This document shows, in pieces, positions 2,070 to 43,977 of a DNA stretch of 59,659 nucleotides. Under the pieces are notes generated by a model that worked only from the letters and a program-made list of their open reading frames with translations, was not told where the DNA came from and made no database searches. Position numbers and translations under genes: made by a program. Positions within the stretch are counted from its first letter, which is position 1. Each line of letters opens with the position of its first letter. This DNA comes from a virus (taxonomy: Duplodnaviria; Caudoviricetes): the IMG/VR virus record IMGVR_UViG_3300027889_000037, positions 1 to 59,659 of that record. One strand, 5' to 3'.

Positions 2070-2765
2070 ATGTTTTTCATTTACGGCAGGACAAGCACGC
2101 TGGAACAGGCCGAAGCTGGCGCCGTTTCCATTCCCGAGCAGCTTCGCAAAGGCAAGGCGCTGGCGCAACTTCGCGGTGTTGCGGGAAAAGATTGCGTGAC
2201 CTTCGTGGATAAGGGCGTTTCCGGCTCGACGCCGCTCGCCTTTCGCCCGCAAGGTAAGGAGATGCTGGAGGCTGCGCAGCAAGGCGATTGTATTGTTAGT
2301 TCGAAGATGGACCGCCTGTTCCGTTCTGCTATTGATGCGCTCCAGACTGCCGACGATCTCAAGCAGCGCGGTGTTGATCTTATTCTAATCGACGTTTCGG
2401 CCGATCCGGTGACTAGCAACGGCACTGGCAAGCTCTTTTTCTCGATCCTTGCCGTCATGGCCGAGTTCGAGCGCGACCGCATCCGCGAGCGAACCGAGGA
2501 AGGCCGGCGCGGCAAGCGCGCCCGCCGCGGCTTCATGGGTGGTGGCGTGCCGATCGGGTTCAAGGTGCAAGGCAAAGGTCGCGAGGCCCAGCTTGAGGAA
2601 GACGAGCGCGAGCAGGCGGCGATTGCCAAGGCGCGCGAACTGGCCGAGGGTGGTCACGCGCCGGGTCGGATCGGGCGATATCTGACGAAATACTACCCGA
2701 CGAGATCGGGTCGCAAATGGCAATGCGTTCAGGTGCAGCGCATTTTGGCGCGAGTGGAGGCATGA
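2070..2765 (+). CDS. Serine recombinase (resolvase/invertase family)
   Basis: YGRTST catalytic Ser, DKGVSGS, RP, KMDRLFRS, AEFERDRIRERT; GGAGG RBS before ATG 2070. Confidence 0.92.
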   Translation: MFFIYGRTSTLEQAEAGAVSIPEQLRKGKALAQLRGVAGKDCVTFVDKGVSGSTPLAFRPQGKEMLEAAQQGDCIVSSKMDRLFRSAIDALQTADDLKQRGVDLILIDVSADPVTSNGTGKLFFSILAVMAEFERDRIRERTEEGRRGKRARRGFMGGGVPIGFKVQGKGREAQLEEDEREQAAIAKARELAEGGHAPGRIGRYLTKYYPTRSGRKWQCVQVQRILARVEA

Positions 2766-2884
2766 TGAGCGGATTTCCGCGCGCATCTTATTATTTTGCG
2801 CTGTTTTGGGGTTGCATCATGATAGTTGGCGGCTTGGCGGCATTGGTTTTTGCCGTTTCTGTAATTATGCACTAAGGAATAAAA

Positions 2885-4309
2885 ATGGGCGATCGCGCGA
2901 GTTCAATCAAAATGTACAACGCCGCGTTCGACGCGGTGCGCAACCAGAATTACAAGGACTGGGCCACCCACGCTTTCGGTCTCCTGCAATCCGCCTGCAT
3001 CGTCGATCCGACCATGGGGCAGGCGTGGGCCGACAACGCCAATTCCAACGGCGACATCAACCGGCTTCATGCGGCTGTTGCCTGCTACCGCCGCGCGCTA
3101 GACGGCGATCTTGGCACCGACAAGCAGATCGAAGTGCTGTCCAACATCTCCTGGCGCCTCAATCAGCTTGGCGAGCTTGAGGAAGCTCTGAAGTTCGCCC
3201 AGATGGCCGTCGAGCTAGGCCCGCACGAGGCGTACCCGTGGGTGAATCTGTCGCAAGCTCACGGCGCCTTTGGCCAGCGCCTAGCCGCGGTCGAGACGGC
3301 GCGCGAGGGCCATCGCCTCAAGCCCAACGATACCGCGACCCAGTTCAATCTCGCATTTGCGCTCCTGTTCAACGAGGAATACGCTGAGGGCTTCAAGTTT
3401 CTGGAGTCGCGGTTCGAGCATCGGCTGAAGAACTATCTCACCTATCCGTACCCGAAGTGGGAGGGCGAGAAGGACGCGATCGTGTTTCTCGTGGCCGATC
3501 AGGGCATGGGCGATACTCTTAGCTTCGCCCGCTTCCTCGACGCTGCGGCAAAGCGGGCCAAGTACATCCACGCCATGGTGCAACCGGTCCTGCTGCGCGC
3601 GTTCACCGAGGCGTTCGTGCATCTGCCCAACGTGAATTTCACGCCGACCTCGACCTCCTACCCGCCTGCCGATGCATGGACTACGTTCGTCTCGCTGCCC
3701 TACGCGCTCAAACTGACCGATCAAGAGATCAAGGACGCGCCGCATCCGAAGCTCCCGGTCTACGGCATGGCCGACACATGGAAGATGCCGGATATAAAGC
3801 TGCATATCGGCATCGCCTGGGCTGGCTCCGCGTTCAACGATCTCGACAAGTGGCGCTCATTTCCGCTCACTCATTTCCTCGATCTCTACAAGGTGCCCGG
3901 TATCCAGCTTTACTCGCTGCAAAAAGACGAGCGCACCCGAGATTTGAATGATTTTTGCTGCGAATCGCTTGTTCGGGATATGAGCCCGTGGATATCCGAT
4001 GCTGTCGATACAATATCTGTGCTCCAGAAGCTCGATCTTGTCATTTGCGCCGAGTCATTTCTCGCACATATTTGCGGCGCAATCGGCAAGGAGGTGTGGA
4101 TCCCGTATTCGTTCCACGCCCATGATTATCGTCTCGGTCACGACGGCAAATCGATGCTGTGGTACGGCAAGACGCACCGGTTGTTCTTGCAGGATCGCGA
4201 CATGCGGTGGGATAAAGTTTTTCAGCGCATCACACTGGCGCTAAGGGAGAAGGTCAATGGACTTGCCGTTGTTGATCCGCAAGCTAAAAGAAAAGTCGCG
4301 ATACGCTGA
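2885..4309 (+). CDS. TPR-repeat protein with C-terminal GT-B glycosyltransferase-like domain
   Basis: N-terminal TPR helices; DQGMGDTLSFARFL, IGIAWAGS, LYSLQK, LDLVIC motifs typical of TPR-glycosyltransferases. Confidence 0.85.
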   Translation: MGDRASSIKMYNAAFDAVRNQNYKDWATHAFGLLQSACIVDPTMGQAWADNANSNGDINRLHAAVACYRRALDGDLGTDKQIEVLSNISWRLNQLGELEEALKFAQMAVELGPHEAYPWVNLSQAHGAFGQRLAAVETAREGHRLKPNDTATQFNLAFALLFNEEYAEGFKFLESRFEHRLKNYLTYPYPKWEGEKDAIVFLVADQGMGDTLSFARFLDAAAKRAKYIHAMVQPVLLRAFTEAFVHLPNVNFTPTSTSYPPADAWTTFVSLPYALKLTDQEIKDAPHPKLPVYGMADTWKMPDIKLHIGIAWAGSAFNDLDKWRSFPLTHFLDLYKVPGIQLYSLQKDERTRDLNDFCCESLVRDMSPWISDAVDTISVLQKLDLVICAESFLAHICGAIGKEVWIPYSFHAHDYRLGHDGKSMLWYGKTHRLFLQDRDMRWDKVFQRITLALREKVNGLAVVDPQAKRKVAIR

Positions 4310-39714: not shown

Positions 39715-39903
39715 TCATTCGGCAACAACGGTTTCAAGAGCGCGTAAAGCATATCGCGCGTTTATTTCGCGCGTCGAAGCCTCGTTCACGGCTTTGTTTG
39801 CTGCCTGCAATTCCGCGATCACCTTAGATTGGTATTCGACCATGGCGGCATATGAGCGCTCGGCACATTCTAGTTCCAGTCTGGCGGCTTCAAGTTTTGT
39901 CAT
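39715..39903 (-). CDS. Coiled-coil hypothetical protein
   Basis: TGATG coupling to recombinase gene. Confidence 0.55.
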   Translation of the reverse strand: MTKLEAARLELECAERSYAAMVEYQSKVIAELQAANKAVNEASTREINARYALRALETVVAE

Positions 39904-40901
39904 CACGCCACCTTCTCGCTGCTCTTTTCCATCCGCATCCGCTGCACGGTATGGGTGTTCTCCCGGCTGGCGCGGCTGTAGTCCATTGTCTGCGATACGT
40001 CGCTGTGTGTAGCGGCATCGCGGACATGCGCAGCCTGGGCGCCCATGGCGATGGCTTCGCTGATCGCACCGGCCCGCGCGTCGCGGTTTTGCACATTCAA
40101 CGGCACGCCACACTCGGTCGCGATGATCCGCCATTCTTCGCGGAAGTCATCGGCTTTATATGGGAAGCCGGTGTATTCATCGATAATCACGGGGCCGCTC
40201 GCCGGCAGCAATAATCGATCGGCAGAGCATCCCGGCCACATATGCTCAAGCTCGGCCATGACCAGCGGCGCCAATGTCAGGTCCGGCTCGGATAGTTTCT
40301 TGCGCTTGCTCGTGACGTGATGGACGACAAAATCAGCGCCGATTTCTTCCCAGCGCAGACCCTTGAGCCACTTCATTGGACCTTTTCGCGGGTGCATCGA
40401 GCAAACGTCCGACAGGCCCGGTTCGCCAATCGGCAGCCATTCGCCGAGAACGTCCTTCTGCCGCCAAGTGCATTCAAATTGGAGGGCCTGTGCGAGCCCG
40501 ACCATCGGGAGGCGCGGGCGCGCGGCGTTGCAAATCGCGGTTGCTTGCTCGCGGGTGATGTGGACCGTTCGCGGCTTGCCGTTGGCGAAGCGGCCTTTGC
40601 TCAGTAGCAGCCCGAGGCGCTGGCAGGCTTCGTCATCGAGCGCGAAGAAGCCGAAGTTGGCGAGCGTGCGCAGCATCCCGATCAGCGCATGGCCCATCGA
40701 AACCTTCCGGCCGCCGTCGCTCCATTGCTGATGCCATTCGTAGATCGTCCGGCCCTTGATGGTCGCCACATCTACGTCGCCGTGGGCGCGCTCGATCTGT
40801 GTCATGAGCCGGACGTAGTATTGCCGCGTGCAGTATTCGAGCTTGGCGAAGTTCGATACTGGGTCGGTGCGGTAAGCGGACATGAGTTCATTGAGACGCA
40901 T
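39903..40901 (-). CDS. Tyrosine recombinase/integrase (no N-terminal arm-binding domain)
   Basis: R (CTWRQKD), K (TSKR), NRDARAG, ATHS, MDYSR catalytic-type residues. Confidence 0.8.
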   Translation of the reverse strand: MRLNELMSAYRTDPVSNFAKLEYCTRQYYVRLMTQIERAHGDVDVATIKGRTIYEWHQQWSDGGRKVSMGHALIGMLRTLANFGFFALDDEACQRLGLLLSKGRFANGKPRTVHITREQATAICNAARPRLPMVGLAQALQFECTWRQKDVLGEWLPIGEPGLSDVCSMHPRKGPMKWLKGLRWEEIGADFVVHHVTSKRKKLSEPDLTLAPLVMAELEHMWPGCSADRLLLPASGPVIIDEYTGFPYKADDFREEWRIIATECGVPLNVQNRDARAGAISEAIAMGAQAAHVRDAATHSDVSQTMDYSRASRENTHTVQRMRMEKSSEKVA

Positions 40902-41767: not shown

Positions 41768-41803
41768 CGTTTTCCCGACATTGCAGAAGTATGTCGGCTT
41801 TCC

Positions 41804-42862
41804 TTAAGCCGCAGCCTCTTTACGTGCGGCGATCATGCCGCGCAGTTCTTGTTTACTCTCTGGGGACATCGAATAGCCGCGACCCCAATGGGTCTCAATT
41901 TGCAACCCATGCGGTTCAATCTTTGCTCTGATTTTGCAAACGAACACGTCCACAATTTTAATCTCTGGCGCATCATCCGCCCGATCCGAATAAAGGGCAG
42001 TCAAGATCGCCTCTTTGGACATGATGTCGCGCGAGAGCAACGCGGACACGACACGTTCCTCGCTTGCAGTCAGCTTTAGTTCCGGCGGCAACAGTTCTTT
42101 GCCGTTCATTGTTTCTTCAAGCATTCTAACACGTTCGCGCAATTCTTCATTTTCTTCCTCTACCAGAGAGCGACGCAAGGCAGGATCATGCTTGAAGCGT
42201 CCGAAACTCTCCCACGATTCGTTGATGGCCTCTGCCATATATTTGATGTGTTCGCCTAGCAGAGCAGAAGCCGAAACGGCTTCTTCATTGCTGTATTTTT
42301 GAACCCACTCGACAAGCTCACCAAGCGCACCATTTATTGGAATAGGCGCTGCATCGGCCAAGTCTGCGCGAAACTCGGCCACCTGATTGAAGATCGGAAC
42401 CAAGAACGACTTTGCGTTTTGAAACGCTGCAAGATGAGAATACTTGACCCGCCACGCGTCCACTTCGCGGAGTGCAGCCAAGATTTCATCGTTCGGCGAG
42501 CGGACAATTTCAATTGACCGCTCGTCCTCGTCCCAACCGGCCGCGTCGCCTTCGTGCTGCTTAACCGCAACACGGTAGGCTCGTGTCGCATATTCCTTGC
42601 CTTCGCTGACAAAGCGCACGCGCACAGCGTTTATCATGTGGTTGGCTTGGCCGACGCGATATTGATGGGCGGCTTTTTTATCGTCCCACTCAAAATAGCC
42701 GCGTAGCGGGCTGTTGGCGGAGTGGGCAGCCTGCACAACAGCTTCCGCCGTCACATCGCCATCTGTCGCAATCTCTTGGAGCACAGGGCCAATGGCCCGC
42801 GCATCGTCGTTGGAGAACGACGATCCAGTTAGGGCAAAGTATTCTTTGATCGATATAGTCAT
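41804..42862 (-). CDS. Two-domain protein: N-terminal phage domain (SPL..YFEWDD..AA..YR) fused to OmpR/CtrA-like winged-helix DNA-binding domain
   Basis: C-terminal PEIKIVDVFVCKIRAKI...IETHWGRGY closely resembles the CtrA C-terminus. Confidence 0.8.
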   Translation of the reverse strand: MTISIKEYFALTGSSFSNDDARAIGPVLQEIATDGDVTAEAVVQAAHSANSPLRGYFEWDDKKAAHQYRVGQANHMINAVRVRFVSEGKEYATRAYRVAVKQHEGDAAGWDEDERSIEIVRSPNDEILAALREVDAWRVKYSHLAAFQNAKSFLVPIFNQVAEFRADLADAAPIPINGALGELVEWVQKYSNEEAVSASALLGEHIKYMAEAINESWESFGRFKHDPALRRSLVEEENEELRERVRMLEETMNGKELLPPELKLTASEERVVSALLSRDIMSKEAILTALYSDRADDAPEIKIVDVFVCKIRAKIEPHGLQIETHWGRGYSMSPESKQELRGMIAARKEAAA

Positions 42863-43307
42863 GTCATTTCGATTGTCGTGTCGGCATTGCTACGCGCGTC
42901 TCTGCAACTCAAATCGGCTCTTTTGGTAAAGGGCCAAACAAAACATTTCTTCTCAGTTGTTCGGTTGTCCATTGTCGTCGCATGTAAGCTTTTCTTATCA
43001 AATGACAAAGGGACAAAACTTTTCATTTCATCGGTCGTGTCGTCTTTGCATCGGTTCTCGCGTGTCATCGGCTCGGCGGTTCTCGCTTCTGCTCTTATGA
43101 TAAATGGACAAACAATTCATTTGCTTTCGGATGTTTTGTCATCGGCTCTTCTCTCAGCAAGTCTCCTGGTAAATGGACAAACATTTCATTTCAGTTGACC
43201 GCTCGTCCTTTCAAAGCACATCAGGGATTTTGGCCTCTTTTCTTATATCTCGTCTGAGGTCTTCTGGTCGGTTCAACGCATAGCAAATCGACTCTGCTCT
43301 TGTGTTT
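42859..43307 (-). ncRNA. Pentamer-periodic non-coding array (6 blocks, 77 pentamers), candidate guide-RNA array
   Basis: On + strand 76/77 pentamers begin [TG][CG] (43 are TC); blocks at 42859, 42948, 43023, 43117, 43186, 43248. Confidence 0.85.
42924..43190. repeat. Four conserved linker repeats TGRYAAAKGGMCAAAC..WCATT separating array blocks
   Basis: Copies at 42924-42947, 43003-43027, 43098-43121, 43167-43190. Confidence 0.85.
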
Positions 43308-43936
43308 TATCCCGCCTTGGCCCGCACTTTCGAATGGACTTCGGTGGAATCCTTCAAAACGAACTGGCCGAACACGCCGTTAAGCTCGGGGCGCCATGCG
43401 CCGAACCCTACCGCGAATCCGGCAATCTGGAAAAGGTTGAGAATCTGCGCCGGGCCGATGATGCCCGCGTTATACACAACCGGGATTTCCATTTCCCACG
43501 GCCAGAACGAGGGCCGATAGGCGATGCTGGTCACGCCACCTTGGAGGCGCACGGTGTCGGTTCGCATGGTCGGCGGCGGGGATTTGATTTCGATCAAGCT
43601 GCCCAGGATATTGATGGCGCCGCGAAGGTGCGTCATCTTTTCGTCGGCGAACCGTCCGCCGGCAACCACGAGGCACTTTTTGATGCCGATGGACGGATAG
43701 CCGAACGTGCCGTCAAGATCAGTCTTGCCCGCCTTGATGACGTGCAGCTTTTCAACAAACTCAGCGTGCGGGTCGCGGGCTTCCTTGACGCCCTTGGCTT
43801 TCTTTTGCTGCTTGTTCTCAATCGACGTGATGGCATTCTCGCCAAATCGATTAGTCAAAAGCGGGCTGGTGCCGACCACCTTGACGGTAATTCGGTCCAA
43901 TTTGATCTCTGGAATTTCAATCGTCCGTTCGGCCAT
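43307..43936 (-). CDS. Stand-alone RAMP/Cas7 (Csm3-like) RNA-binding protein
   Basis: ITVKVVGTSPLL first strand, YPSIGIKKCL (cf. IPGSSLKG), C-terminal G-rich loop GFAVGFGAWRPELNGVFGQF; AGGAGG RBS. Confidence 0.75.
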   Translation of the reverse strand: MAERTIEIPEIKLDRITVKVVGTSPLLTNRFGENAITSIENKQQKKAKGVKEARDPHAEFVEKLHVIKAGKTDLDGTFGYPSIGIKKCLVVAGGRFADEKMTHLRGAINILGSLIEIKSPPPTMRTDTVRLQGGVTSIAYRPSFWPWEMEIPVVYNAGIIGPAQILNLFQIAGFAVGFGAWRPELNGVFGQFVLKDSTEVHSKVRAKAG

Positions 43937-43977
43937 TCTACCCTCCTGTTTTTAGGCACTAATCTGTCATTATTCGG

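What the first reader, a model, noticed from the sequence alone, without database searches (positions are those of the whole stretch)
42859..43307. Hidden strict 5-nt periodicity across a 450-nt intergenic region
Seen (hand-parsed, + strand): block 43023-43102 reads tcatt tcatc ggtcg tgtcg tcttt gcatc ggttc tcgcg tgtca tcggc tcggc ggttc tcgct tctgc tctta tgata. Six blocks have 14, 12, 16, 11, 12 and 12 pentamers. Of 77 pentamers, 76 start with [T/G][C/G] (43 are TC; the only exception is gattt at 43226). Position 3 is almost never C, and positions 4-5 vary freely. On the transcribed strand this is NN-(A/C/U)GA with ACA/ACC/UGC/AGC variants. A 5-nt period is incompatible with codon structure, and the variable positions differ between blocks, so this is not a simple microsatellite. 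Inference: each block stores about 20-30 nt of information in its NN positions.
Basis: seen in the sequence. Interest (0 to 1): 0.93.

Follow-up and report, generated by a model that had tools for sequence, protein, structure and literature searches.

The report
Phage VIPR guide array targeting transposases
The 5-base rhythm is the guide-RNA array of a phage VIPR system, a CRISPR-like DNA-silencing device first described in 2026, and most of its guides spell conserved parts of jumping-gene (transposase) genes.

Summary
Lag-5 autocorrelation in 42859-43307 is 0.392 against 0.264 in dinucleotide-preserving shuffles (z 5.5). It is the strongest such signal in the window.

On the minus strand the region parses into six tracts of 12, 12, 11, 16, 12 and 14 pentamers. 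Each pentamer is a degenerate scaffold H-[G/C]-[A/C], mostly HGA, followed by a free NN.

The gene just upstream (43307-43936, minus) is a Vipr homologue. Its family profile hits PDB 36pp 'SUSP1 Vipr protein' at E 4.8e-15.

This is therefore a VIPR locus, as described in bioRxiv 10.64898/2026.04.26.720920 and .720927. It differs in having a non-GGY scaffold, an unstructured A/U-rich separator and a different partner gene carrying an OmpR-type winged helix.

Read with the published 1-nt-skip rule, four of six guides spell conserved motifs of IS1595-family and IS1-like transposase genes:
- G1: 97 exact hits in IMG/VR, against 0 for the pattern read backwards.
- G6: 66 exact hits.
- G4: 29-30 of 32 NN positions at three of four metagenome hits.
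- G5: 19-21 of 24.
- G2 and G3: no target found.

The kind is already known. This scan also reached the same reading on a close relative (e1-6176482).

The parts
43307..43936 (-). vipr gene: 209-aa RAMP (Cas7-like) protein that would coat the guide RNAs, one protomer per pentamer.
   Evidence: No Pfam hit; phrog_4652 at 1.4e-19. A profile of 44 family members hits PDB 36pp_D 'SUSP1 Vipr protein' at E 4.8e-15 over chain residues 4-189 of 202. The same profile finds one place in the SUSP1 genome, 28495-29070 minus, at E 1.4e-17. The AF2 model has pLDDT 93.8. Its best PDB folds are Csm3/Cmr4/Cas7 backbone subunits, E about 2e-6, TM 0.44-0.55.
43246..43305 (-). Guide tract G1: 12 pentamers, starting 2 nt after the vipr stop codon.
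   Evidence: Segmentation. The 10-NN gapped pattern has 97 exact hits in IMG/VR, against 0 for the backwards control. In 96 of 97 the opposite strand encodes R-x-LGVTYKTAW with the skipped base at the wobble position. Two of these ORFs were scanned and both are IS1595-family transposases (NF033547, 204 and 209 bits).
43184..43243 (-). Guide tract G2: 12 pentamers, 2 nt out of phase with G1. No target found.
   Evidence: Segmentation. The 10-NN pattern has 0 hits in IMG/VR. The full pattern with up to 3 mismatches has 0 hits in the window and four relatives' records.
43170..43183 (-). Separator 1: conserved A/U-rich element (with the preceding TGAAATGAAA).
   Evidence: Repeat family D1, 4 copies spaced 79, 95 and 69 nt. 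An alignment of 11 separators from three phages gave no predicted consensus base pair.
43115..43169 (-). Guide tract G3: 11 pentamers. No target found.
   Evidence: Segmentation. 0 hits in IMG/VR. 0 hits with up to 3 mismatches in the window and relatives.
43101..43114 (-). Separator 2, identical in sequence to separator 1.
43021..43100 (-). Guide tract G4: 16 pentamers.
   Evidence: Segmentation. The 10-NN pattern has 0 hits in IMG/VR. The 11-NN pattern has 4 exact hits in metagenome contigs. Three lie on the sense strand at Y-A-[S/R]-EAAWREDNRR and match 29-30 of 32 NN positions. Two full ORFs of 318-319 aa are IS1595-family transposases (NF033547, 156 and 147 bits).
43006..43020 (-). Separator 3: 15 nt, so G4 and G5 stay in phase.
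42946..43005 (-). Guide tract G5: 12 pentamers.
   Evidence: The 10-NN pattern has 0 exact hits in IMG/VR. A mismatch-tolerant scan of 163 fetched loci finds 7 sites at 19-21 of 24, where shuffled NN orders reach 17-18. All seven read F-Y-N-F... in the guide's frame. Three lie in the same roughly 290-aa IS1-like ORFs as the G6 motif.
42927..42945 (-). Separator 4: 19 nt, a longer variant.
42857..42926 (-). Guide tract G6: 14 pentamers. Its last two pentamers overlap the ATG of the partner gene at 42862.
   Evidence: The 10-NN pattern has 66 exact hits in IMG/VR. In all 66 the opposite strand encodes MRR[F/L]TRLTNA[F/H]S[K/R]. Two ORFs were scanned and hit Pfam DDE_Tnp_IS1 at 36.5 and 26.4 bits (cut-off 24.1). 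The NCBIfam IS1 model scores 55-70 bits, below its cut-off of 100.
41804..42862 (-). Partner (vap-like) gene, 352 aa: conserved N-terminal domain, long helices, C-terminal OmpR/PhoB-type winged helix.
   Evidence: Trans_reg_C at E 2.8e-9, residues 261-331; phrog_15946 at 1.1e-14, residues 27-152. A homologue lies next to vipr in all 8 other loci examined (tblastn E 0 to 7e-8). No similarity to the gene next to vipr in SUSP1 (BLASTP E 2.3).

Best explanation
The region is the guide-RNA (vrRNA) array of a phage VIPR system.

Proposed mechanism:
- The operon vipr (43307-43936), array, partner gene (41804-42862) is transcribed on the minus strand.
- Vipr protomers polymerise along each tract, one per pentamer.
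- They hold the three scaffold bases (here H-[G/C]-[A/C], mostly HGA, instead of the published GGY) and present the two free bases.
- The NN pairs of one tract (11-16 of them) pair with double-stranded DNA that carries the same dinucleotides separated by one skipped base. The skipped base usually falls on the codon wobble position.
- Binding blocks transcription.

Four of the six guides are aimed at conserved motifs of IS1595-family and IS1-like DDE transposase genes. The phage therefore most likely silences insertion sequences, or elements that carry them, in the cell it occupies.

Shown here: the periodicity, Vipr homology, the conserved gene-array-partner arrangement, and the gapped matches to transposase genes.

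Inferred from the published SUSP1 work: filament formation, DNA binding and silencing.

Inferred by me: processing at the A/U-rich separators, the role of the partner protein, and the biological benefit of silencing transposases.
For: 1. Periodicity: z 5.5-7.4 against dinucleotide-preserving shuffles.

2. Vipr homology: PDB 36pp at E 4.8e-15. One hit in the SUSP1 genome at the gene between two long intergenic regions, E 1.4e-17. The fold is closest to Csm3/Cmr4/Cas7.

3. Conserved linkage: all 8 other loci with a homologue have a strong lag-5 region touching the gene. These are L004-L007 from IMG/VR and the phages Ecliptus, Saal and UmaThurman. In the actinophages the units are plain NNGG[C/T].

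4. Gapped code: G1 has 97 exact hits against 0 for the backwards control. G6 has 66. Four other 20-base guide patterns have 0, so the background is near zero. Skipped bases sit on wobble positions.

5. Independent test of rule and register: the target loci were not selected with G5. There G5 reaches at least 80% NN match at 4 sites under the 1-nt skip. It reaches that at 0 sites under skips of 0, 2 or 3, or under the shifted register.

6. Convergence: G1 and G4 hit two IS1595 subfamilies. G5 and G6 hit two motifs of one IS1-like gene. Other guides of relatives L004 and L005 hit further motifs of the same families: KKG.SAHQLHR, YKTAFVLFHKLREAMA and DEIWSF.

7. G1's tenth NN differs between phages. 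It reads TC in the window, GT in L004 and GC in L005. These are the antisense of E, T and A codons at the one variable residue of the target motif. All three variants occur among the hits.

8. In orthologous guides the NN positions change less (12 of 122) than the scaffold positions (36 of 183).

9. Protein-RNA covariation. In SUSP1, H17 and D177 contact the first scaffold G (paper section read). The actinophage Viprs with GGY arrays keep H and D/E. The window's clade has N29 and A180 and almost never has G at scaffold position 1 (3 of 77). R141, W181 and R182, the equivalents of R138, W178 and R179, are kept.

10. No self-target reaches 80%, as the preprint reports for its own systems.
Against: - No expression data: no RNA run holds the locus. 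Transcription, RNA ends and processing are therefore unshown.
- No sigma-70-like promoter above chance and no terminator in the array.
- The published 3' tail is structured (a pseudoknot in the SUSP1 clade). Here the conserved separator shows no consensus pairing, and the units fold no better than shuffles (z -0.1 to +2.2).
- G1 has no separator of its own.
- G2 and G3 have no target.
- G4's core with up to 3 mismatches hit 5 of 401 genomes of the putative host order, against 4 control hits. That is chance level.
- G1 with up to 2 mismatches hit only 2 of 81 genomes of that order (control 0). The targeted IS are therefore not shown to be common in the likely host.
- The host itself is only a lead: one Lichenihabitans MAG with a 66%-identical Vipr.
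- The IS1-like assignment passes Pfam's cut-off but not NCBIfam's.
- Only 6 target ORFs were scanned against family models.
- The partner protein has no similarity to SUSP1's neighbour gene.
Confidence: 0.85

Rival explanations
1. It is a genuine VIPR locus, but the real targets are rival phages, prophages or satellites that happen to carry these transposase genes, or domesticated transposase homologues in them. Insertion sequences as such are not the target. Silencing would then serve inter-phage competition, as in the published cases.
For: All G1 and G6 hits come from a viral-contig collection. The published natural targets are satellites and prophages, including a satellite recombinase (abstract and section list seen; text read). 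G1 matched only 2 of 81 sampled genomes of the putative host order.
Against: The hit ORFs have full IS1595 architecture (Zn ribbon plus DDE domain) and typical IS transposase lengths of about 290-320 aa. The hits are spread over 97 and 66 unrelated-looking contigs, not one element family. I did not examine their ends or neighbours.
Confidence: 0.2
2. It is a VIPR-derived locus that no longer guides anything: a decaying or orphan array. Alternatively its RNAs act only as a decoy or sponge for Vipr-like proteins. The transposase matches would be relics.
For: The scaffold is degenerate (13 different trinucleotides). There is no structured tail. Two guides lack a target. The October 2026 preprint describes stand-alone vrRNAs used as decoys (abstract).
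Against: The vipr gene is intact and models with high confidence (pLDDT 93.8). NN positions of orthologous guides are conserved better than scaffolds, which indicates selection on target matching. Matches of 23 of 24 and 30 of 32 are not relic-like. The same arrangement is kept in complete phage genomes with terminal repeats (L004 and L005).
Confidence: 0.06
3. The pentamer tracts are protein-binding sites read as double-stranded DNA or as RNA with no guide role. Examples: operators or iterons for the winged-helix partner protein (origin, partition or autoregulation), or a TRAP-like RNA wrapped round a protein ring. This was my own first guess before the Vipr homology was found.
For: A winged-helix DNA-binding gene starts inside the last tract. 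The 11-12 units per tract recall the 11 triplets of TRAP sites; this comparison is recalled, not tested.
Against: The neighbouring protein is a Vipr homologue. The free NN positions spell transposase motifs in the gapped code, which no operator or sponge model predicts. The winged helix is absent from the partner genes of L006, L007, L010 and the actinophages, which still have arrays.
Confidence: 0.03
4. It is a chance or compositional artefact of an A/G-rich spacer.
For: None beyond the purine bias of the minus strand.
Against: z 5.5-7.4 against dinucleotide-preserving shuffles. It is the top signal of the whole window. The same signal lies next to every homologue examined.
Confidence: 0.005

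Closest known systems
Type II VIPR system of Escherichia phage SUSP1. Sources: bioRxiv 10.64898/2026.04.26.720920 (Results and methods sections 20, 26, 27 read); 10.64898/2026.04.26.720927 (sections 5 and 6 read); PDB 36pp.
   Same: - A small RAMP protein homologous to Vipr.
- Arrays of 11-16 pentamers, each three scaffold bases plus two free bases.
- Several guides in tandem beside the gene, in a phage genome.
- Targets read with one skipped base that falls on the codon wobble position, on either strand.
- No self-targets.
- An adjacent accessory gene with a predicted DNA-binding domain.
   Different: - Scaffold is H-[G/C]-[A/C] (43 of 77 HGA) instead of GGY.
- The two residues that contact the first G in SUSP1 (H17, D177) are N and A here.
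- The conserved element between guides is A/U-rich with no predicted structure, instead of a pseudoknotted tail.
- Gene order is vipr-array-partner, instead of vipr-partner-array with one upstream guide.
- The partner protein is unrelated by BLASTP (E 2.3) and carries an OmpR-type winged helix.
- Targets are IS transposase genes, not a satellite or prophage regulators.
Non-canonical VIPR arrays. The classification methods of 10.64898/2026.04.26.720920 list NNNGG, YNNNG and NNNNG repeats. 10.64898/2026.10.21.760802 reports 21 clusters with GAC, CAC, WGT or TGH scaffolds (passages read).
   Same: Five-nt arrays next to Vipr-like folds whose fixed trinucleotide is not GGY. In the preprint's notation the window's units would read NNNNG.
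   Different: HGA or H-S-M is not among the motifs named in the text I could read. The figures and supplements that list them are not held. No targets or protein-scaffold covariation are given for those clusters in the passages I read.
Actinophage loci with the same gene pair: Gordonia phages Ecliptus (genes 19-20) and UmaThurman (genes 39-41), and Mycobacterium phage Saal (genes 51-52).
   Same: Vipr homologue at 32-36% identity. The same partner N-domain (E 1e-14 and 6e-11). A pentamer array of 235-340 nt touching the vipr gene.
   Different: Canonical NNGG[C/T] units. No A/U-rich separators, but recurrent GGCAGG[C/T] four-base steps. In Saal the array lies upstream of vipr. The partner has no winged helix. 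In UmaThurman the array is annotated as a protein gene.
Class 1 CRISPR-Cas backbone subunits (Cas7, Csm3, Cmr4).
   Same: Best structural matches of the protein model (E about 2e-6, TM 0.44-0.55). One protomer per fixed step of guide RNA, with periodically flipped bases; this point is from the preprints.
   Different: No CRISPR repeat-spacer array. No other cas genes were recognised among the ten neighbouring ORFs scanned. No PADLOC hit. The step is 5 nt, and pairing is non-contiguous.

Membership tests
VIPR system | Vipr protein: a minimal RAMP homologous to the described Vipr family. | tested here: met
   Profile against PDB 36pp 'SUSP1 Vipr protein': E 4.8e-15, nearly full length. Profile against the SUSP1 genome: E 1.4e-17. 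Pairwise BLASTP: E 3e-9 over the G-loop region. Foldseek top hits are Csm3/Cmr4/Cas7. G-loop glycines G173, G177 and G179, and R141, W181 and R182, are conserved.
VIPR system | vrRNA: 9-16 tandem pentamers in which a conserved trinucleotide alternates with a hypervariable NN. | tested here: met
   Six tracts of 11-16 pentamers. Positions 2-3 carry 1.0-1.2 bits; positions 4-5 carry 0.03-0.08 bits.
VIPR system | Scaffold trinucleotide is GGY. | tested here: not met
   0 of 77 units are GGY. 43 are HGA; the rest are ACA, TGC, ACC, CCA, AGC, TCA, GGA, ATC, GCA or CGC. The preprints themselves admit related consensuses, so this feature defines the canonical type, not the family.
VIPR system | Targets follow the 1-nt skip rule, with the skipped base mostly at the codon wobble position and on either strand. 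| tested here: met
   G1: 97 hits against 0 for the control. G6: 66 hits. G4: 29-30 of 32. G5: 19-21 of 24. G1 and G6 are antisense; G4 and G5 are sense. For G5, only the 1-nt skip reaches 80%. G2 and G3 have no target.
VIPR system | Invariant 3' tail with conserved secondary structure after the repeat tract. | tested here: inconclusive
   A conserved A/U-rich element follows four of the six tracts. RNAalifold predicts 0 pairs on 11 copies from three phages. Rfam finds nothing, and no hammerhead. RNA ends are unknown.
VIPR system | Adjacent accessory (vap) gene predicted to interact with DNA. | tested here: met
   The partner gene is adjacent in 9 of 9 loci. The window's copy has a Trans_reg_C winged helix. 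Identity with one of the published vap1-6 families could not be tested. It is unlike the SUSP1 neighbour gene.
VIPR system | vrRNAs are expressed and co-purify with Vipr, and the complex silences DNA targets. | not testable with these tools
   No RNA run holds the locus.
VIPR type II (SUSP1 / P. fulva clade) | Type-specific Vipr clade, vap1, GGY vrRNAs with a pseudoknot tail, and vipr-vap-array order. | tested here: not met
   Partner protein unrelated. Scaffold, tail and gene order all differ. Which of the seven types this is cannot be told without the preprint's supplementary data.
CRISPR-Cas | Repeat-spacer array with contiguous spacers, plus cas gene set. | tested here: not met
   No such repeats. 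No PADLOC or Pfam cas hits among the neighbours scanned.
TRAP-like RNA-binding ring site | About 11 (G/U)AG triplets with 2-3 nt spacers, bound by a TRAP protein (feature recalled, not from a call). | tested here: not met
   The neighbouring protein is a RAMP, not TRAP. The free bases carry target information.

The most novel reading that the evidence does not exclude
This clade of soil and freshwater temperate phages uses VIPR as an RNA-guided anti-transposon device.
- Most guides in three related phages are aimed at the most conserved codons of IS1595 and IS1-like transposase genes. One array can therefore silence whole IS families regardless of synonymous drift.
- The clade has re-tuned the protein-RNA interface: H17 to N and D177 to A, with a scaffold that excludes G at position 1 and prefers A at position 3.
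- That pairing gives a natural example of how the scaffold code and the protein co-evolve.

Transposase genes as a natural VIPR target class are not stated in the text of any of the four papers I could search. The preprints' supplementary target tables were not visible.
Probability: 0.45. Interest if true: 0.7.

Novelty: new variant of a known kind. Interest (0 to 1): 0.5.

Why it matters
VIPR was described only in 2026 and has been characterised in one clade (SUSP1 and P. fulva). This locus adds four things.

1. It shows by sequence evidence that the 1-nt-skip code also holds for a non-GGY scaffold.

2. It pairs the scaffold change with changes at the two residues that read the first scaffold base in the solved structure. 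That is a direct, testable handle on how Vipr recognises its repeat.

3. It points to insertion sequences as a target class. That would extend VIPR from phage-phage and phage-satellite conflict to the control of transposons by a virus.

4. It shows that annotated 'hypothetical protein' genes in actinophage records (for example UmaThurman gene 40) are probably guide arrays.

The kind of system is already known. The same reading was reached earlier in this scan on a close relative. The gain is one of breadth and detail, not of principle.

Tried and rejected
Readings I rejected:
- My first guess was a TRAP-like RNA wrapped round a protein ring, or a dsDNA iteron site. I dropped it after the Vipr match and the target hits.
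- A coding reading of the region was rejected. ORFs 42859-43068 (minus) and 42878-43198 (plus) exist mechanically. However, the 5-nt phase, the lack of a lag-3 signal and the variable unit number among relatives argue against coding.

Searches that found nothing useful:
- blastn of 41800-43940 against phage records: no match.
- PADLOC: no hit. NCBIfam: only sub-threshold winged-helix hits for the partner gene.
- Rfam at E <= 1: only a chance-level lncRNA hit outside the array.
- Promoter and terminator scan: at chance level.
- Folding of each unit: no more stable than shuffles. These were mononucleotide shuffles, despite the function name in my script.
- Consensus fold of 11 separators: 0 pairs.
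- Sequencing runs: no RNA holder listed. Only one DNA run holds the stretch, and it may be its source. I did not lay reads.
- Protein atlas for the partner N-domain: only unnamed viral clusters.
- PDB search with the partner protein: only weak OmpR-family hits, E 0.03 and above.

Failed or wasted steps:
- Single-sequence AF2 of the partner protein gave pLDDT 40.5, which is unusable. That was the last fold job, spent without an alignment.

Target searches that failed:
- G2, G3, G4 and G5 10-NN patterns in IMG/VR: 0 each.
- G2-G4 full patterns with up to 3 mismatches in the window and four relatives' records: 0.
- G4 core with up to 3 mismatches in 401 genomes of the order of G001: 5 hits against 4 control hits.
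- G2 and G3 in all fetched target loci: not above shuffles.

Caveats on my own tests:
- The skip-rule comparison is circular for G1, G4 and G6, because the loci were fetched with 1-nt-skip patterns of those guides. Only the G5 line is independent.
- The weaker lag-5 signal at 2653-2802 lies in a coding ORF and shows no pentamer array by eye. I did not pursue it.
- Supplementary files of the preprints (type tables, Data S3 target lists, figure S17 logos) were not seen. They may already list this clade, its scaffold or transposase targets.


Full report
WHAT IS THERE

The window is an IMG/VR virus record of 59,659 bases, estimated 92% complete. It carries a family-A DNA polymerase, an SNF2 helicase and an integrase-like gene.

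Between two minus-strand genes, 43307-43936 (209 aa) and 41804-42862 (352 aa), lie 444 non-coding bases. In 42859-43307 the lag-5 match rate is 0.392. Mononucleotide shuffles give 0.265 +/- 0.020 (z 6.2), and lags 10-25 are also raised while lag 3 is not. Dinucleotide-preserving shuffles give z 5.5. The two best 150-nt windows of the whole record for this signal both lie here. Tandem Repeats Finder reports nothing in the region.

ANATOMY

Read on the minus strand, a simple dynamic-programming parse gives six tracts:
- G1: 43305-43246, 12 pentamers.
- G2: 43243-43184, 12 pentamers.
- G3: 43169-43115, 11 pentamers.
- G4: 43100-43021, 16 pentamers.
- G5: 43005-42946, 12 pentamers.
- G6: 42926-42857, 14 pentamers.

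Over the 77 pentamers:
- Position 1 is A36 T23 C15 G3.
- Position 2 is G54 C22 T1.
- Position 3 is A60 C17.
- Positions 4 and 5 are nearly uniform.
- 43 units carry GA.

The same parse finds 39 +/- 5 conforming units in shuffles, against 77 observed.

G1 and G2 are separated by 2 nt. The other tracts are separated by a conserved A/U-rich element of 14-19 nt (TGTTTGTCCATTTA and variants), preceded by TGAAATGAAA. G6 runs into the ATG of the downstream gene.

THE NEIGHBOUR GENE AND THE LINK TO THE ARRAY

The 209-aa protein has no Pfam family and belongs to phrog_4652, of unknown function. It is a member of a large family: 2,651 representative clusters at E <= 1e-3.

tblastn found homologues at about 32% identity in 33 phage records, mostly of Mycobacterium and Gordonia. 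In Gordonia phage Ecliptus the homologue (gene 19) and a homologue of the N-terminal part of the 352-aa protein (gene 20) flank 262 bases. These read as plain GGCAT-type pentamers.

I then scanned every fetched locus. All eight have a strong lag-5 region touching the gene. These are four IMG/VR relatives at 62-98% identity, plus Ecliptus, Saal and UmaThurman. In the actinophages the unit is NNGG[C/T].

At that point I thought of an oligomeric protein binding one unit per 5 nt. A look-up of earlier notes of this scan named the VIPR systems.

TESTING THE VIPR LEAD

I read the Results and three methods sections of bioRxiv 10.64898/2026.04.26.720920. I also read two Results sections of 10.64898/2026.04.26.720927.

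VIPR is defined there by three things:
- A small RAMP protein (Vipr).
- vrRNAs made of 9-16 YNNGG repeats, that is GGY scaffold plus NN.
- An accessory vap gene.

The NN pairs pair with DNA that has one skipped base between them.

The test results:
- A profile of 44 family members hits PDB 36pp 'SUSP1 Vipr protein' at E 4.8e-15 over almost the whole chain.
- In the SUSP1 genome (accession taken from the third preprint) the profile finds exactly one place, E 1.4e-17. This is a 195-aa gene between two long intergenic regions.
- The AF2 model (pLDDT 93.8) is closest to the Csm3/Cmr4/Cas7 backbone subunits of class 1 CRISPR complexes (E about 2e-6, TM 0.44-0.55).

The protein is a Vipr.

DO THE NN PAIRS CARRY TARGET INFORMATION?

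I took the two bases after each scaffold, put one N between pairs, and searched exact patterns of 10 pairs (20 specified bases) in IMG/VR.

G1:
- 97 matches. The same pattern read backwards gave 0.
- In 96 of the 97 the opposite strand encodes R-x-L-G-V-T-Y-K-T-A-W, with every skipped base at a wobble position. The 97th is a 62-codon remnant with the same peptide.
- Two of these ORFs were scanned. Both have the IS1595 zinc ribbon and DDE domain and pass NCBIfam's IS1595 model (204 and 209 bits, cut-off 75).

G6:
- 66 matches, all antisense to M-R-R-[F/L]-T-R-L-T-N-A-[F/H]-S-[K/R] in ORFs of about 300 codons.
- Two ORFs scanned hit Pfam DDE_Tnp_IS1 above its cut-off, but NCBIfam IS1 below its cut-off. 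I call them IS1-like.

G2, G3, G4 and G5 gave 0 exact matches. This also shows that the background for such patterns is near zero.

G5:
- In a mismatch-tolerant scan of the 163 fetched loci it reaches 19-21 of 24 at seven sites. Shuffled NN orders reach 17-18.
- All seven sites read F-Y-N-F-[C/V]-R-I-H in the guide's frame, on the sense strand.
- In L123, L129 and L139 the site lies in the same ORF as the G6 motif, about 25 codons downstream.

G4:
- An 11-pair pattern in metagenome contigs gave four matches.
- Three lie on the sense strand at Y-A-[S/R]-E-A-A-W-R-E-D-N-R-R and match 29-30 of all 32 NN positions. The fourth matches 25 of 32 in an unrelated frame.
- The two full ORFs are IS1595-family transposases (156 and 147 bits).

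Four of six guides therefore point at transposase genes of two IS families.

CONTROLS ON RULE AND REGISTER

- No site in the window itself reaches 80% (best 17 of 24, 20 of 32 and 19 of 28).
- The target loci were not chosen with G5. For G5, only the 1-nt skip with the HGA-then-NN register reaches 80% (4 sites). Skips of 0, 2 and 3, and the register shifted by one base, give none.
- The same comparison is circular for the other three guides.

EVIDENCE FROM RELATIVES

The array has the same build in L004 (98% identical Vipr) and L005 (91%), but a different number of units. The middle guides are wholly different.

Where guides are orthologous, scaffold positions differ more (36 of 183) than NN positions (12 of 122). 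In G5, five scaffold bases differ between the window and L004 and no NN base does.

G1's tenth pair is TC, GT and GC in the three phages. These are the antisense of Glu, Thr and Ala codons at the one variable residue of the target motif. RELGV, RTLGV and RALGV versions all occur among the hits.

Other guides of L004 and L005 reach 21 of 24, 25 of 32 and 22 of 26 on further motifs of the same transposase families: KKG.SAHQLHR, YKTAFVLFHKLREAMA and DEIWSF.

L006 and L007 (63-70% Vipr identity) have arrays with mostly HGC/ACC scaffolds and no match in the fetched loci.

WHY THE SCAFFOLD DIFFERS

In the SUSP1 structure, the first scaffold G is read by H17 and D177. The second is read by R138 and W178, and the pyrimidine by a pocket that includes R179.

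The HMMER alignment maps these to N29, A180, R141, W181 and R182 of the window's protein.

In the alignment of nine Viprs:
- The three actinophage proteins, whose arrays are GGY, have H and D/E at the first two positions.
- All six proteins of the window's clade have N and A.

R141, W181 and R182 are invariant across all nine. This fits a scaffold that keeps G (or C) at position 2 and has lost G at position 1 (3 of 77). It also supports equating H-G-A with G1-G2-Y3. It is a correlation over two clades, not a proof.

THE PARTNER GENE

The 352-aa protein has a conserved N-domain (phrog_15946), long predicted helices and a C-terminal OmpR/PhoB-type winged helix (Trans_reg_C, E 2.8e-9).

A homologue of the N-domain lies beside vipr in all eight other loci. 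The winged helix is aligned only in L004 and L005.

It shows no similarity to the gene next to vipr in SUSP1 (E 2.3). I take that gene to be vap1 from its position only.

The preprint says vap genes of several types encode DNA-binding proteins, including winged-helix-like ones. Which vap family this is I could not test. My single-sequence fold of it failed (pLDDT 40.5).

WHAT IS NOT SHOWN

- There is no RNA evidence.
- No promoter or terminator was found above chance.
- No Rfam family matched.
- The separator has no predicted consensus structure, unlike the pseudoknotted tail of the SUSP1 clade.

I suggest the separators are processing sites or a protein-recognised tail. That is inference only.

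The host is unknown. The only genome hit is a Lichenihabitans MAG with a 66%-identical Vipr. In samples of that order the G1 target is rare (2 of 81, control 0), and the G4 core is at chance level (5 of 401 against 4 control hits). Whether the targeted genes are free insertion sequences or passengers of rival elements was not examined.

COMPARISON WITH WHAT IS KNOWN

The kind is known:
- VIPR is described in two April 2026 preprints.
- An October 2026 preprint covers satellite competition. I saw its abstract, section list and searched passages.
- Non-GGY scaffolds are also in print in general terms. The first preprint lists NNNGG, YNNNG and NNNNG. 10.64898/2026.10.21.760802 lists GAC, CAC, WGT and TGH.

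Transposase genes as natural targets are not mentioned in the text of these four papers. My searches were: 'transposase', 'insertion sequence', 'transposon' and 'IS1595' within papers, and a library search for vrRNA plus transposase.

Within this scan the same conclusion was already reached on a close relative (e1-6176482, sharing 47 of 50 words with this Vipr). Single IS1595-directed guides were also noted in two other phages.

VERDICT

- The locus is a VIPR system of a non-canonical variant.
- Its interest lies in three things: the demonstration that the gapped code holds for an HGA-type scaffold, the matching change in the two G1-contact residues, and the aim at insertion-sequence transposases.
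- Interest is 0.5. Novelty is 'new variant of a known kind'.

Noticed in passing
L009:3140-3463 (Gordonia phage UmaThurman, annotated gene 40): The annotated 'hypothetical protein' CDS lies entirely inside a 340-nt NNGG[C/T] pentamer array between the Vipr homologue (gene 39) and the partner homologue (gene 41). It is probably a guide-RNA array, not a protein gene.
   Followed up: partly
L008:2090-2370 and 2342-3088 (Mycobacterium phage Saal, gene 51): In Saal the pentamer array lies upstream of the Vipr homologue. The annotated start of gene 51 (2342) reaches into it, while homology starts near 2489-2501. The gene start is probably annotated too far upstream.
   Followed up: partly
L008:2090-2370, L009:3120-3460, L001:3965-4200: The actinophage arrays have no A/U-rich separators. 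Instead they show recurrent GGCAGG[C/T] four-base steps, mostly 24-65 nt apart (a few 4-14, one 88), that shift the phase by one base. This may be the 'staggered arrays with 1-nt overlap' mentioned in a figure legend of the first preprint.
   Followed up: no
L001:2100-4951 (Gordonia phage Ecliptus genes 16-21): The vipr-array-partner module sits with two helix-turn-helix genes between the tail assembly chaperone and tape measure genes. This looks like an inserted cassette inside the structural operon.
   Followed up: no
window 2653-2802: This is the third-best lag-5 signal of the window (score 0.26). It lies inside the ORF 2043-2765 and its end, with no pentamer array visible by eye.
   Followed up: partly
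window 42857-42866: The start codon of the partner gene (ATG at 42862-42860) lies inside the last two pentamers of guide G6. The sequence there (GAAATGACATG) resembles the TGAAATGAAATG that ends the other units. The units may therefore have arisen by duplication of the segment just before this gene.
   Followed up: no
L006:3596-3767 and L007:3585-3865: More distant relatives (63-70% Vipr identity) use scaffolds that are mostly AGC, ACC or TGC (C at position 3), although their Viprs share N29 and A180 with the window. The residue at the position of F178 is I in L006 and L010 but F in L007. No simple residue explains A versus C at position 3.
   Followed up: partly
records of L004, L005, L006 (handles G402, G403, G404): IMG/VR classes L004's and L005's records as complete genomes with direct terminal repeats, and L006's as a provirus. 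The clade includes temperate members, in line with the integrase-like gene at window 39903-40901.
   Followed up: no
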